Positions 53,796 to 57,194 of a stretch of DNA of 64,000 nt are shown here, piece after piece; positions within the stretch are counted from its first letter, which is position 1, and each line of letters opens with the position of its first letter. The notes below the pieces were generated by a model. The model was not told the DNA's origin. It ran no database searches and was given only the letters and a program-made list of their open reading frames with translations. The stretch comes from Gammaproteobacteria bacterium (GTDB lineage: Bacteria; Pseudomonadota; Gammaproteobacteria; Thiotrichales; Thiotrichaceae), in contig JAHJJD010000018.1 of the NCBI GenBank assembly GCA_018822845.1, positions 16,607 to 80,606 on the forward strand. The letters are read 5' to 3'. A program made the position numbers and the translations under genes.

Positions 53796-54866
53796 TTACA
53801 GCCACGGCTGCCAGCCAAGGGCCACTGCCAGACCCTCGCCGAAAATCCACACCAGCGTCACCGGGATCAGCACTTTCCAGCCCAAGCGCATGATCTGGTC
53901 ATAGCGATAGCGCGGGAAAGTGGCGCGGAACCAGAAAAACAGCAGCATGAAGAACGATGCCTTCAACAGCAGCCAGTGAATGCCGTTACCAAAGAACAAC
54001 CCGATAACAGGCGTCTCGGTCAGGAATGTCAAACCCTGGAACGGCGACAACCAGCCACCCAGGAACATCAGCGCGGTCAGCGCAGAAATCAGCCACATAT
54101 TGGCGTATTCCGCGAGGAAGAAAATCGAGAACGCCATACCGGAATATTCCACATGGAAACCCGCCACGATCTCGGATTCGCCCTCCGCGACATCGAAGGG
54201 CGCACGGTTGGTTTCCGCCACCCCGGAAATGAAATACACCAGGAACAGACCAAACAGCGGCCACACAAACCAGCTAAAGATGCTGCCGGACTGTGCCATC
54301 ACGATGTCGCCCAAGTTCAGGCTGCCGGATGCCATCAGCACCCCGACCAGCGCAAAACCCATGGCAATTTCGTAGGAAACCATCTGCGCCCCGATACGCA
54401 GGGCAGACAGTTGCGCGTACTTGGAGTTGGATGCCCAGCCCGCAAGGATAACGCCGTAGACCCCCAATGAAGTCAGCGCCAGCAGGAACAGCAAACCGGC
54501 ATTCACATTCGCCAGCACCATGCCATCATCGAACGGGATCACCGCCCAGGCCGCAAACGCAGGCCCCATCGCCAGCAACGGCGCAATCAGGAACAGGAAC
54601 CGGTTGGATTTGGCCGGAATCACGATTTCCTTGAAAATCAGCTTGAACATGTCCGCAAACGGCTGCAACAAGCCCTTGAAACCAACCCGGTTCGGCCCCA
54701 GACGTACCTGCATGTAACCGATGATCTTGCGCTCAGCGTAAGTCGCGTAAGCCACCAGCAGGATCAGCGGCAGCACGATCGCCACGATCTTGAGCACGAT
54801 CACCACCAGCAGCGCCATCCAGTCAGGCAGGAAGCTGGATAACAGGTTGTTTAAAAATTCGACCAT
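53796..54866 (-). CDS. nuoH: NADH-quinone oxidoreductase subunit H
   Basis: [39 protein letters not shown] and TFPRYRYDQ. Confidence 0.97.
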
Positions 54867-54869
54867 AGC

Positions 54870-57194
54870 TTACCCCGCCTTCACTATCTGGATAGAACCG
54901 AATGCCGCGCCCAGCACACTGGATACCTCGATACCGGACTGCAAGCCTGCGCAACCTGCCGGGATGCCTGCATCCACTTGTGCAGGCAGCGTGATGGAAA
55001 CACCGTTTTGCGTTACCTTGACGCTATCGCCTGCCGTGACGCCCAACTTGTCCGCATCTGCCGGATTCAGGCTGACTGCCGCTTCCGGCATCATTGCCTG
55101 CAAGGCTTTGGCGCGGCGCACCAACGGGTCAACCCGGTACATTTCCACATCGCCGATGCGCTGGAATTCATCGGAAGAGGGCGTATGCAATACGCCCCTA
55201 CCATCCCCCGTAGGGGCGTATTGCATACGCCCCTCTGCGGAATAGGCATTGTTGCAGACTTCAGCGCCATGCAGTTCCAGCTTGAGTTCGGCGGCAATTT
55301 CTTCGGTCGTTACCCAGTCAAACTCAGGCACACCGGCATTATTGCCCAGTACACGCAAAATTTTCCAGGTCGGACGCGCATCACCCAATGGCTCGGCCGC
55401 ACCCTTGAAATGCTGCCAATGGCCTGTGGCATTGACGAACGTGCCAGACGTTTCAGCAAATGTGGTTCCCGGCAGCAGCACGGTGGCGTACTTGCGGGTT
55501 GTGTCATCGGCAAACGGCGCAATCACGATCACGTTGTCCGCAGCAAAAAATGCCTGCATCGCCTGTTGCGGATTGGCGAAATCACCCAGTTCCGCGTTCA
55601 GCAGCACGAAGGTGCGGGTATTATCGTGCAGCACTTCAGCGACCGGCACACCCGCCTGCTTAAGTTCGCGGCCTGCGGACAGGCGGTGTGGAACGACACC
55701 AGCAATCCATGCCCCGACGCTGTTGGCGCTTTCCGCCAGATAACCGAATTTCGCACCGGTCTGTTTGGCAATCTCGCTAGCCAAGGCACGCAGGGCGGCA
55801 AAATCAGGATGCTGGTTTGCCACATTGCCCAGCAGTACCACGGCATTTTCAGCGTCTTTCAACGCCCGCATGGTGGGGTTGCTGGCGTCACTGGCAATCG
55901 CAGCAAGGGTTTGCAGCATATCTGCCGGAGCGACTGCCTGCTGGTCTACGTCGTAGTTGAAGTCGAAAGCGCGTGGATTCAGCGCCATCACTTTCGCACC
56001 TTTCAACGCCGCCTTGCGGATGCGATGGTTCAGCAGCGGCTGTTCCTGACGCACGTTGGAACCAATCAGGAATACGGCGTTCTGTTGTTCCAGGTCGGCG
56101 ATTTCCATACCCAGATACGGGCACACTGGCGCGGCGTTCTGGTCACTGAAATCGGCCTGGCGCAGACGGTGGTCAATATTACGGATATTGAGGCCGCGCA
56201 TCAGCCGCTGGAACAGGTAGAGTTCTTCCAACGTGGAATTGGCGCTTGCCAATGCCGCCGTTTGCGTGGCATCAGCCGTGTTCAGGATGGCGGCAGTCGC
56301 TTCCAGCGCCTGTTGCCAGCTCACTTCCTGCCATTGGCCATTACGCTTGAGCATCGGCCTGGTGATGCGGTCAGCGCTGTTGATGCCTTGGTAGCTGAAA
56401 CGGTCGCGGTCGGAAATCCAGCACTCGTTGACAGCTTCGTTGTCACGCGGCACGGCACGCACCACTTCCTTGCGGAAGGTATGAATACTGATGTTGGAGC
56501 CGACGCAATCATGCGGGGCAATTGAATCGTGCGCCACCATTTCCCACGCCCGTGCTGTGTAGCGAGATGGTTTCGCGGTCAACGCACCCACAGGGCAAAT
56601 GTCAATTACGTTGCCAGAGAGTTCAGATTTAAGCGATTTCTCGATGTACGTGCCGATTTCAAGGCGGTCGCCACGCCCTACTCCACCCATTTCACGCATC
56701 CCGGCAATTTCGTCGCCGAAGCGCACACAGCGGGTGCACTGGATGCAGCGGGTCATTTCGGTTTCAATCAGCGGGCCGATGTCCTTGTCTTTCACCACCC
56801 GCTTGATTTCGGCGTATTGGGATTTGCTGCTACCGTAAGCAACGGATACGTCCTGCAATTCACACTCACCACCCTGGTCGCAGATTGGGCAGTCCAGCGG
56901 ATGATTGATCAGCAGGAATTCCATGATGCCTTTCTGTGCATCCTTGGCTTTCTGCGAGCGTGTCCAGAATTTCATCCCTGCGTTGACGGGTGTGGCGCAA
57001 GCTGGAACAGGCTTCCAGGACTTTTCCATTTCCACCAGACACATGCGGCAGTTGGCGGCGATCGACAGTTTCTTGTGGTAACAGAAACGCGGGATGCTTA
57101 TCCCGTTGTCATCAGCCACTTCAATCAGCATCGCGCCCTTGCGTGCCTGCACTGGCTGGTCGTTAATCTCGATTGTGACGAATTCTTCTGCCAT
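54870..57194 (-). CDS. nuoG: NADH-quinone oxidoreductase subunit G (carries an in-frame REPIN insertion)
   Basis: N1b, N5 and N4 cysteine motifs (RFCYH...CRMC, HPLDCPICDQGGEC, CIQCTRC, CPVGAL). Confidence 0.97.
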   Translation of the reverse strand: MAEEFVTIEINDQPVQARKGAMLIEVADDNGISIPRFCYHKKLSIAANCRMCLVEMEKSWKPVPACATPVNAGMKFWTRSQKAKDAQKGIMEFLLINHPLDCPICDQGGECELQDVSVAYGSSKSQYAEIKRVVKDKDIGPLIETEMTRCIQCTRCVRFGDEIAGMREMGGVGRGDRLEIGTYIEKSLKSELSGNVIDICPVGALTAKPSRYTARAWEMVAHDSIAPHDCVGSNISIHTFRKEVVRAVPRDNEAVNECWISDRDRFSYQGINSADRITRPMLKRNGQWQEVSWQQALEATAAILNTADATQTAALASANSTLEELYLFQRLMRGLNIRNIDHRLRQADFSDQNAAPVCPYLGMEIADLEQQNAVFLIGSNVRQEQPLLNHRIRKAALKGAKVMALNPRAFDFNYDVDQQAVAPADMLQTLAAIASDASNPTMRALKDAENAVVLLGNVANQHPDFAALRALASEIAKQTGAKFGYLAESANSVGAWIAGVVPHRLSAGRELKQAGVPVAEVLHDNTRTFVLLNAELGDFANPQQAMQAFFAADNVIVIAPFADDTTRKYATVLLPGTTFAETSGTFVNATGHWQHFKGAAEPLGDARPTWKILRVLGNNAGVPEFDWVTTEEIAAELKLELHGAEVCNNAYSAEGRMQYAPTGDGRGVLHTPSSDEFQRIGDVEMYRVDPLVRRAKALQAMMPEAAVSLNPADADKLGVTAGDSVKVTQNGVSITLPAQVDAGIPAGCAGLQSGIEVSSVLGAAFGSIQIVKAG
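55176..55236. repeat. REPIN: inverted doublet of GTAG-tagged REPs (GTAGGGGCGTATTGCATACGCCCC) inside nuoG
   Basis: 26/27-nt arms around an 8-nt spacer. Each arm is itself palindromic and starts with GTAG. Read as EGRMQYAPTGDGRGVLHTPS in NuoG. Confidence 0.85.

What the first reader, a model, noticed from the sequence alone, without database searches (positions are those of the whole stretch)
55176..55236. A complete REPIN translated inside complex I subunit NuoG
Seen: two inverted GTAG-tagged REPs form a 61-nt hairpin within the nuoG reading frame, adding about 20 residues (EGRMQYAPTGDGRGVLHTPS) near the C-terminal subdomain. The arms differ by one G. Known: GTAG REPs and REPINs are spread by RAYT transposases and are almost always extragenic; coding palindromes are best known from Rickettsia RPEs. 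Inference: a recent insertion tolerated in a core respiratory gene. The hairpin may also pause ribosomes or stabilise/segment the long nuo mRNA just upstream of nuoH.
Basis: partly seen in the sequence, partly recalled or inferred. Interest (0 to 1): 0.7.

Follow-up and report, generated by a model that had tools for sequence, protein, structure and literature searches.

The report
Mobile palindrome translated inside NuoG linker
A small mobile DNA palindrome (a REPIN) really is read as protein inside the complex I gene nuoG of this Thiothrix, but it lies in a floppy linker where related species carry other palindromes, so it is a well-documented example of a known phenomenon.

Summary
Window 55176-55236 contains two inverted, GTAG-tagged REPs, each a perfect copy of the family's 23-mer. 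They lie in frame in nuoG (minus strand, 54870-57194, 774 aa) and can form a -53 kcal/mol hairpin.

The family is real: 38 loci in this 4.0-Mb Thiothrix genome, and it occurs in 18 of 28 genomes of the genus.

The interpretation needs correcting in four ways.
1. The site is a hypervariable, low-confidence linker between the molybdopterin-like domain and the C-terminal beta-barrel. It is not conserved protein core.
2. The REPIN did not simply add 20 residues. In the closest relative (95% identical NuoG) the same slot holds a different 45-nt palindromic repeat. The event is therefore a clean in-frame replacement, 63 nt for 45 nt.
3. The same slot carries the same REPIN in T. lacustris-type species, a second GTAG REP in an 11-species clade, and two other palindromes elsewhere. 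It is a recurrently colonised site.
4. Intragenic copies are common here: at least 9-10 of the 38 loci, including mfd, cobB and nirDL.

In-frame GTAG REP dimers inside genes were described by Di Nocera et al. in 2013. A role for the mRNA hairpin is untested.

The parts
54870..57194 (-). nuoG, complex I subunit G: 774 aa, intact, the only copy in the genome
   Evidence: ORF and translation. Pfam hits Fer2_4, NADH-G_4Fe-4S_3, Fer4_Nqo3, Fer4_NDSU1, Molybdopterin (276-618) and Molydop_binding (693-754). One match in G000.
55179..55241 (-). The 63-nt lineage-specific segment (codons S652-P672) that stands in place of a 45-nt palindromic repeat (PAL4) in the closest relative
   Evidence: Pairwise DNA alignment with L183, between the shared TAT and TCTTCCGA. 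Protein alignment, 732/774 identical.
55210..55232 (+). REP arm A: GTAGGGGCGTATTGCATACGCCC, itself a small hairpin (GGGCGTAT-TGC-ATACGCCC) with a 5' GTAG
   Evidence: 0 mismatches to the family 23-mer; family census.
55179..55201 (-). REP arm B, the same 23-mer in inverted orientation, with the two GTAG heads facing each other
   Evidence: 0 mismatches.
55202..55209 (.). 8-nt spacer (coding strand GGGGGATG, encoding part of TGDG). It is shorter than the family's usual 14-nt spacer, consensus AGGGGAYGATCTTC.
   Evidence: Comparison of 38 loci. T. lacustris-type copies have GGAAGAAG here.
55173..55178 (-). TCTTCC on the coding strand. It is both the consensus REPIN tail (TCTT) and the sequence present at the same place in relatives that lack the REPIN.
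53796..54866 (-). nuoH, the downstream gene. It starts about 310 nt 3' of the hairpin, so the hairpin is not at the gene junction.
   Evidence: ORF list. The syntenic locus L183 has an NADHdh-family gene after nuoG.

Best explanation
The feature is a head-to-head dimer of a GTAG-type REP (a REPIN) from a family spread through the genus Thiothrix. It lies in frame in the flexible linker that joins the molybdopterin-oxidoreductase-like domain of NuoG to its C-terminal beta-barrel domain.

Of the three reading frames on either strand of this element, one carries a TAG (from GTAG) and two are open. The copy in nuoG sits in an open frame and is translated as a Gly/Pro/Thr-rich loop, S652-P672.

It arrived after this lineage split from its closest known relative, and it displaced a different palindromic repeat that occupied exactly the same slot. 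That slot has been colonised again and again in the genus: the same REPIN in T. lacustris-type species, a 'double-foot' GTAG REP in an 11-species clade, and two non-GTAG palindromes elsewhere.

Shown: the anatomy, family membership, in-frame translation potential, replacement relative to the nearest relative, recurrence at the site, and the frequency of intragenic copies.

Inferred: the mobilising enzyme is a RAYT (TnpA_REP subclass 2.4-like). Recurrence reflects a permissive linker, possibly combined with a tendency of incoming palindromes to land on or recombine with resident ones. The insert is neutral or nearly neutral for complex I.
For: - Sequence and frame. Hairpin.
- Family: 47 exact 23-mers at 38 loci, mostly doublets with a conserved 14-nt spacer. 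The same 23-mer is present in 18 of 28 Thiothrix genomes.
- Linker context: Pfam domains lie on either side. The AlphaFold model has pLDDT <50 at 654-667, between helix 630-641 and strand 676-683. Solved homologues stop aligning before the site in all but one case.
- Site occupancy across 25 NuoG genes: REPIN1 in G000, G032 and G033, with a decayed remnant in G012; REP2 (GTAGAGACGCAAAATCTTGCGTCTCTAC) in a clade supported at 100/99; PAL3 in G003; PAL4 in G034. Further examples appear in P0002, P0003, P0004, P0020, P0019 and P0027.
- REP2 is itself a genome-wide family.
- Replacement: the closest relative, P0002/L183, has 45 nt of PAL4 where G000 has 63 nt, and the flanks are nearly identical.
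- Independence from the T. lacustris copy. G000 groups with G034/G035, away from G032/G033. The flanks and spacer differ. Yet the arms are 46/46 identical at 77% overall nuoG nucleotide identity (P about 7e-6 for neutral orthologous descent).
- Generality: in-frame REP1 copies lie in linkers of mfd, cobB, nirDL-like, GH2, AAA and TIR genes. The mfd linker holds six different palindromes across species and is empty in others.
- RAYT link: a RAYT flanked by and containing REP1 is found in G032. There are two RAYT genes in G000 (NF047646 E = 2e-18 and 3e-20).
- Frames.
- Precedent: PMC3733652.
Against: - No RAYT flanked by REP1 itself exists in this assembly. The two RAYTs are flanked by REP3 and REP4 and are only 46-54% identical to the REP1-associated RAYT of G032. 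Who mobilised this copy is therefore inferred.
- No strain of the same species was available, so the age of the event is bounded only by one relative with 95% identical NuoG.
- Translation of the insert and function of the modified NuoG are inferred from an intact single-copy ORF, not measured.
- The identical position and frame in two lineages could also come from ancient common descent with homogenisation, or from short-tract recombination.
Confidence: 0.8

Rival explanations
1. Ancient orthologous element. The REPIN entered the nuoG linker once, early in Thiothrix. It has been kept sequence-perfect in a few lineages (by RAYT-dependent maintenance, gene conversion from other copies, or selection) and was overwritten or decayed in the others.
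For: - The position and reading frame are identical in G000 and in G032/G033.
- G012, sister to G032/G033, has a decayed remnant and almost no REP1 copies genome-wide: 2, against 45-65 elsewhere. That fits decay once the family is inactive.
- REP2 has evidently persisted vertically through an 11-species clade.
Against: - The closest relatives of G000 (P0002, P0003, T. nivea) all carry PAL4 instead.
- It requires at least five independent losses or replacements on the NuoG tree.
- The spacer differs at 3 of 8 positions and the flanks are lineage-specific, while the arms are 46/46 identical.
Confidence: 0.1
2. Short-tract recombination. The REPIN-bearing linker was copied into G000 from another Thiothrix (or from another REPIN locus in the same genome) by gene conversion or template switching, primed on the shared feet (AAGAGGG.../...CCCTCTT), and not by RAYT transposition.
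For: - In mfd, the REPIN-bearing linker allele of G031 is 99% identical to that of G010 but only 76% identical to that of its sister species G006. So linker alleles do move by recombination.
- At orthologous sites in mfd, G017 and G014 have identical outer feet but different inner stems in both arms.
- PAL4 and REPIN1 share AAGA.../...TCTT termini.
Against: In nuoG the sequence immediately outside the element follows the G000/P0002 lineage and not T. lacustris, and the spacer differs. Any tract would therefore have to be confined to the element itself, which cannot be told apart from transposition with these data.
Confidence: 0.1
3. Selected nucleic-acid element. The hairpin is kept in nuoG because it acts at the RNA or DNA level, for example on nuo mRNA stability or processing, translational pausing that helps NuoG domain folding, or gyrase/IHF binding. 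The peptide would be a by-product.
For: - The hairpin is very stable.
- Some palindrome occupies this slot in most species of the genus.
- The REP2 copy in nuoG of G002/G010 carries a compensatory G:C to A:T change that is unique to that copy.
Against: - Six species have no recognisable palindrome here (G001, G015, G009, G035, G008, G038), and in G007 and G012 it has decayed.
- There is no terminator-like tail and no Rfam match above noise.
- The same families sit in linkers of many unrelated genes, which points to tolerance and away from a nuo-specific role.
- There is only a single covariation event.
Confidence: 0.12
4. Artefact: an assembly chimera, or a nuoG pseudogene.
For: The genome is a 130-contig draft.
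Against: - The element lies about 21 kb from the nearer end of a 93-kb contig.
- The ORF is intact and is the only nuoG.
- Independent assemblies of other species show the same in-frame element, including an NCBI T. lacustris NuoG of 775 aa.
Confidence: 0.01

Closest known systems
Intragenic GTAG-tagged REPs and REP dimers (Di Nocera, De Gregorio, Rocco 2013, BMC Genomics 14:522, PMC3733652)
   Same: GTAG-headed stem-loop repeats, often as dimers, lie wholly inside ORFs of known proteins and encode 20-30 residues. The authors suggest they are tolerated in flexible linkers. The paper notes different REPs at about the same site of recB in two Xanthomonas species, and many cases in repair genes (here: mfd).
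   Different: Thiothrix and nuoG are not among their cases. Here a single slot is followed across about 30 species. It shows at least four successive families, a clean element-for-element replacement against a 95%-identical relative, and the same REPIN at the identical nucleotide position in two separated lineages.
REPIN-RAYT systems (Bertels and Rainey 2011, PMC3116915; 10.1101/2021.07.10.451892)
   Same: Two inverted REPs with a conserved short spacer form a hairpin. The population has a high share of master sequences. A RAYT flanked by the same REP exists in a congener. The copy has decayed in a species (G012) where the family is nearly extinct.
   Different: Those authors describe REPINs as residing 'almost exclusively in extragenic space'. 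Here about a quarter of the loci are in frame inside genes. The element is about 62-68 nt, not about 100. No REP1-flanked RAYT is present in this genome.
TnpA_REP subclass 2.4 / RAYT group 4 (Quentin, Siguier, Chandler, Fichant 2018, PMC6006769)
   Same: The RAYT genes of this genome and of G032 are flanked by GTAG REPs, including 'double-foot' GTAG...CTAC types. [quoted passage not shown]
   Different: Subclass assignment by phylogeny was not done here. The scores against NF047646 are below the curated cut-off (66-73 versus 80 bits).
Rickettsia palindromic elements (RPE; Ogata et al. 2000, as cited in PMC3733652)
   Same: A palindromic mobile repeat is inserted in frame into conserved protein genes and is presumably translated into surface loops.
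   Different: The sequence family is unrelated, much shorter (61 nt versus about 100-150), GTAG/RAYT-type, and in a free-living sulfur oxidiser. No homology test was run.

Membership tests
GTAG-type REP / REPIN | Short imperfect palindrome (stem-loop) with the conserved tetranucleotide GTAG at its 5' foot | tested here: met
   GTAG-GGGCGTAT-TGC-ATACGCCC on both arms.
GTAG-type REP / REPIN | Dispersed multi-copy family within the genome | tested here: met
   47 exact copies and 73 at up to 4 mismatches, at 38 loci on 30 contigs. 0 expected by chance in the window.
GTAG-type REP / REPIN | Inverted doublet with a conserved spacer that folds as one long hairpin (the REPIN unit) | tested here: met
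   28 of the 38 loci are head-to-head inverted doublets, mostly with the 14-nt spacer AGGGGAYGATCTTC in either orientation. The nuoG copy has an 8-nt spacer and folds at -53 kcal/mol.
GTAG-type REP / REPIN | A cognate single-copy RAYT flanked by the same REP | tested here: inconclusive
   Not found in G000. Its two RAYT genes are flanked by REP3 and REP4. Found in congener G032, where the RAYT is flanked by and contains REP1. REP4 shares GTAGGGGCG...CGCCCTCTT with REP1.
GTAG-type REP / REPIN | Extragenic location (descriptive, not mechanistic) | tested here: not met
   This copy and at least 9 others lie in frame inside Pfam-supported genes.
NuoG / Nqo3 (complex I subunit G) | N-terminal 2Fe-2S and 4Fe-4S domains plus a molybdopterin-oxidoreductase-like domain, encoded in a nuo operon | tested here: met
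   Pfam. PDB homologues at E = 1e-137. The syntenic nuoD-E-F-G-H-I-J-K-L order is seen in L183.
Rickettsia palindromic elements (RPE) | Sequence membership in an RPE family; length about 100-150 bp | not tested
   Functional analogy only. The element here is 61-68 nt and of the GTAG type.
TnpA_REP subclass 2.4 (for the genome's RAYT genes) | HuH and Y motifs, flanking GTAG REPs, and a REP inserted in frame between HuH and Y | tested here: met
   ...VVMPNHFHGII...[REP]...NYYEHIIR... at C30:45312-45926, and the equivalent at C101:7012-7545. NF047646 is the best hit. Paper PMC6006769. Phylogenetic placement was not done.
Intrinsic terminator / known cis-regulatory RNA | GC-rich stem followed by a U-run, or a match to an Rfam model | tested here: not met
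   0 terminator-like sites in 54700-55700. The only Rfam hit scores 16 bits against a gathering score of 50, E = 0.83.

The most novel reading that the evidence does not exclude
In Thiothrix, interdomain linkers of essential genes (nuoG, mfd and others) may act as landing pads where palindromic mobile elements succeed one another by precise, frame-preserving element-for-element replacement. On this reading incoming REPs, or their RAYT, or hairpin-driven template switching, target resident palindromes and do not insert at random. That would explain the same REPIN at the identical nucleotide in two separated lineages, and 'flavour switching' of both arms at fixed boundaries.
Probability: 0.3. 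Interest if true: 0.6.

Novelty: new member of a known kind. Interest (0 to 1): 0.4.

Why it matters
On its own this is a neat but ordinary case: a selfish palindrome tolerated in a disordered loop of a respiratory enzyme, of a kind catalogued in 2013.

Its value is as a natural experiment. About 30 Thiothrix genomes show one slot in nuoG, and another in mfd, in several states. Some are empty, some are filled by one of at least four to six repeat families, some have decayed, and in one case one element has been swapped exactly for another.

That series could be used to test two things. The first is whether REP/REPIN insertion is targeted to resident hairpins or merely filtered by selection. 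The second is whether RAYT presence maintains REP sequence.

It is also a caution for annotation. Peptides such as GRMQYAPT, GVLHTPS and GVCNTPLQ in these proteins are repeat-derived.

Tried and rejected
- A Pfam Y1_Tnp (PF01797) search of the own genome found nothing. This turned out to be a false negative. Each RAYT gene is split by an in-frame REP and scores 22.5 bits against a cut-off of 23. tblastn and NF047646 then found two loci.
- The 244-aa Y1-like genes of G001 and G006 are flanked by 27-nt TIRs, not by REP1 or REP2, and have no homologue in G000. I rejected them as the cognate enzyme.
- I asked whether the compensatory REP2 variant in nuoG of G002/G010 was copied from a family variant. 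It was not: the variant is unique to nuoG in both genomes.
- I asked whether conservation of REP2 across its clade is unusual. It is not, given 93-94% nuoG identity there.
- The terminator scan and the Rfam search found nothing.
- I looked for a same-species strain with an empty site in the 5.8-billion-protein collection. There is none; the nearest is a 95%-identical relative.
- A paper search for Thiothrix plus REP found nothing relevant.
- The earlier-findings look-up for this genome returned nothing.
Full report
**1. The observation**

The coding (minus) strand between window 55236 and 55176 reads GAGGGGCGTATGCAATACGCCCCTAC-GGGGGATG-GTAGGGGCGTATTGCATACGCCCTC.
- The 23-mer GTAGGGGCGTATTGCATACGCCC occurs there twice, in inverted orientation, with no mismatch. 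None is expected by chance in the 64-kb window.
- Each arm is itself a small hairpin (GGGCGTAT-TGC-ATACGCCC) with GTAG at its foot.
- The whole stretch folds as RNA to -53.3 kcal/mol (z = -6.1; 0 of 200 shuffles as stable).
- It lies inside the uninterrupted ORF 54870..57194 (minus strand, 774 aa). This ORF has the full NuoG domain set, matches complex I 75-kDa/NuoG chains in the PDB at E = 1e-137, and is the only nuoG in the genome.

**2. It belongs to a real repeat family**

The window is contig C125:16607-80606 of a 4.0-Mb, 130-contig genome with 54.7% G+C. Public records name the genus as Thiothrix.
- The 23-mer occurs 47 times exactly and 73 times with up to 4 mismatches, at 38 loci.
- Most loci are head-to-head doublets, AAGAGGGCGTATGCAATACGCCCCTAC-N14-GTAGGGGCGTATTGCATACGCCCTCTT. 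The spacer is conserved (AGGGGAYGATCTTC, in either orientation). This is the REPIN architecture.
- A minority of loci, including nuoG, have 8-9-nt spacers.
- The same 23-mer is found in 18 of 28 Thiothrix genomes, at up to 65 copies.

**3. Where it lies in the protein**

The element encodes S652-P672.
- This falls between the Molybdopterin domain (276-618) and the C-terminal Molydop_binding-like barrel (693-754).
- In an AlphaFold2 model built on 19 homologues, residues 654-667 have pLDDT below 50. They lie between helix 630-641 and strand 676-683, both of which are confidently modelled.
- Alignments to solved complex I subunits end before this point in all but one case.
- In 25 aligned NuoG genes the segment between C-N-N-x-Y and F-Q-R-I-G-D-V varies in length (10-25 residues) and in sequence. 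Both flanks are conserved.

**4. What relatives have at the same slot**

| State of the slot | Genomes |
|---|---|
| Same REPIN, same nucleotide position, same frame, spacer GGAAGAAG | G032, G033. The 775-aa T. lacustris NuoG in NCBI (P0005) is of this type. |
| Decayed remnant (AEGK-DVLHKPFS; GCAGAGGG...GTATTGCATAAGCCCTTTTCT) | G012 (T. fructosivorans), which is their sister; probably also P0019 |
| A different, 'double-foot' GTAG REP, GTAGAGACGCAAAATCTTGCGTCTCTAC (GRDAKSCVS) | A clade of 11 species supported at 100/99; degraded in G007 |
| A CCCCTCTCCC-TCAA-GGGGAGAGGGG palindrome (PAL3) | G003; a similar peptide in P0027 |
| A CCTCCCC-TGAYAA-GGGGAGG palindrome (PAL4; SSSPDKGRSGGV) | T. nivea (G034/P0004), P0002, P0003, P0020 |
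| No recognisable palindrome | G001, G015, G009, G035, G008, G038 |

- The double-foot REP is itself a dispersed family, with roughly 5-40 copies per genome in 15 of 28 genomes (a palindromic site matches on both strands).
- In G000, PAL3 and PAL4 are multi-copy families, with 61-92 and 14-86 copies.

**5. The event in this lineage was a replacement**

The closest NuoG in a 5.8-billion-protein collection is P0002, from an ENA Thiothrix MAG. It is 732/774 identical, and about half of the differences fall in the linker.

At the DNA level the two genes are collinear and nearly identical up to ...AACAAYRCYTAT and from TCTTCCGAYG... onward. Between these points:
- the relative has 45 nt of PAL4 (AACGGCTCTTCCTCCTCCCCTGACAAGGGGAGGTCGGGAGAGGTT);
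- this genome has 63 nt (window 55179-55241) that make up the REPIN.

The net change is +6 codons, in frame. So the element is lineage-specific ('recent' on the scale of a few per cent NuoG divergence). It displaced a resident palindrome; it did not enter virgin coding sequence.

**6. Independent of the T. lacustris copy?**

- On a NuoG tree built without the linker, G000 groups with G034/G035. It is separated from the G032/G033+G012 group by supported nodes.
- nuoG nucleotide identity between G000 and G032 is 77%, and 54% at third positions. Yet the two arms are 46/46 identical, which is improbable for neutral orthologous descent (about 7e-6).
- The spacer differs at 3 of 8 positions, and the adjoining codons follow each lineage.

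The most economical reading is two separate arrivals of a family whose master sequence is conserved across the genus. Two alternatives cannot be excluded and are listed as rivals: ancient descent with homogenisation, and conversion confined to the element.

**7. Intragenic copies are common in this genome**

Of the 38 loci, at least 9-10 are spanned in frame by long ORFs with Pfam support. In each case the element lies between domains or in a terminal tail:
- Mfd (between UvrB_inter and D3);
- CobB-type amidase (just before GATase_3);
- a NirDL-like siroheme decarboxylase (between its two halves);
- a GH2 glycosidase, a double-AAA ATPase, a TIR-domain protein and a SagB-type nitroreductase;
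- the DusB C-terminal tail;
- a 725-aa ORF that gave no Pfam hit at E <= 1e-5.

Two of the three frames on each strand of the consensus are open: RGRMQYAPT...RRGVLHTPS and EGVCNTPLQ...VGAYCIRPL. The third contains the TAG of GTAG. Both open frames are used.

The mfd linker repeats the nuoG pattern.
- It is short and empty in G006, G001, G008, G007, G013 and G037.
- Elsewhere it holds tail-to-tail REP1, REPINs of three further flavours with identical outer feet, PAL4, or a CCCCCTTTTTCAAAGGGGG hairpin.
- G031's REPIN-bearing mfd allele is 99% identical to G010's but only 76% identical to that of its sister species G006. Such alleles therefore also spread by homologous recombination.

**8. The transposase question**

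- A Pfam Y1_Tnp search of the genome was negative, but this was a false negative.
- Two RAYT-like genes exist, at C30:45312-45926 and at C101:7012-7545 (minus strand). Both have the HuH (PNHFH) and Y (NYYEHIIR / NYWEHIIR) motifs.
- Their best NCBIfam hit is REP_Tyr_transpos, at E = 2e-18 to 3e-20 but below the curated cut-off.
- Each is flanked by a REP flavour of its own and contains a copy of it in frame. At C30 this is GTAGGGGCAATTCATGAATTGCCCCTAC. At C101 it is GTAGGGGCGACCGGCGGTCGCCCTCTT, which has 20-39 copies genome-wide.
- This REP-inside-the-gene arrangement is the published hallmark of TnpA_REP subclass 2.4 (PMC6006769).
- In G032 a RAYT is flanked by and contains REP1 itself. The two G000 enzymes are only 46-54% identical to it.
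- The REP1 family therefore has a demonstrable REPtron in the genus, but none in this assembly. Mobilisation here by the C101 enzyme, whose REP shares head, foot and tail with REP1, is an inference.

**9. Does the hairpin do something?**

Evidence against a role, or absent:
- There is no U-run and no terminator-like site, and no Rfam family.
- The hairpin lies about 310 nt upstream of the nuoG stop, not at the nuoG-nuoH junction.
- Several species lack a palindrome at the slot or let it decay.
- The same elements sit in unrelated genes.

Evidence for selection on pairing is a single hint. The REP2 copy in nuoG of G002/G010 carries a G:C to A:T double change that is unique to that copy.

I therefore rate a selected RNA or DNA function as possible but unsupported.

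**10. Comparison with what is known, and verdict**

- In-frame GTAG REPs and REP dimers encoding 20-30 residues inside known genes were described by Di Nocera et al. 2013 (PMC3733652). They found them notably in repair genes and suggested that flexible linkers tolerate them. They also noted different REPs at about the same site of recB in two Xanthomonas species.
- Rickettsia RPEs are the classical analogue.
- REPIN-RAYT work describes REPINs as almost exclusively extragenic. This genus departs from that in degree, not in kind.

The finding is a real and well-resolved new member of a known kind. What goes beyond the literature I read is the density of the comparative series at one slot, and the exact element-for-element replacement. 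Together these make targeted 'landing-pad' insertion a testable idea.

Interest 0.4. Confidence in the main explanation 0.8.

Noticed in passing
G000 contig C30:45299-46079 and C101:6912-7731 (outside the window): Two RAYT (REP-associated tyrosine transposase) genes. [quoted passage not shown] All four copies of GTAGGGGCAATTCATGAATTGCCCCTAC in the genome are at the C30 locus. The C30 ORF appears to start at an ATG inside the upstream REP.
   Followed up: partly
G000 C65:57541-57631 (mfd) and loci L153-L182: The Mfd linker between UvrB_inter and D3 is empty in six species. In others it holds six different palindromic elements. These include REPINs with identical outer feet but different inner stems in both arms at the same boundaries (G017/G002 versus G014 versus G012).
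   Followed up: partly
L155 (G031), L167 (G006), L154 (G010): Mosaic mfd. G031 and G006 are almost identical in nuoG. Around the mfd REPIN, however, G031 is 99% identical to G010 and 76% identical to G006. This indicates inter-species recombination of the REPIN-bearing allele.
   Followed up: partly
G000 C6:856-1317: Three REPIN copies (the GTATGGCATAC variant) within about 460 nt, all spanned by one 398-aa ORF. I did not check whether that ORF is a real gene.
   Followed up: no
G000 C106:11107, C39:8720, C116:45723, C30:16893, C33:4837, C6:44767: These REPIN copies share at least 30 nt of similar flank on both sides (aggaacgtgcacgaaataacttcccaaaga ... tcttcacggttacgccgggtcggggatatt). They are therefore embedded in a larger repeated unit of unknown nature.
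   Followed up: no
L010 (G002) and L012 (G010), nuoG linker: The REP2 hairpin in nuoG has a compensatory stem change (GACGCAA/TTGCGTC to GACACAA/TTGTGTC). It is found nowhere else in those two genomes. One of the two changes is non-synonymous (A to T) and the other is synonymous.
   Followed up: yes
L038:3044-3888 (G006) and L037 (G001): A 244-aa Y1-transposase-like gene flanked by perfect 27-nt inverted repeats, AATCAAAGGGGTCAGACTCGATTGATT (a TIR-associated type, not REP-associated). It is absent from G000.
   Followed up: partly
whole-genome search: The whole-genome PF01797 search misses RAYT genes that are split by an in-frame REP. NF047646 or tblastn with a relative recovers them. This is worth remembering when 'no RAYT' is reported for a REP-rich genome.
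   Followed up: yes
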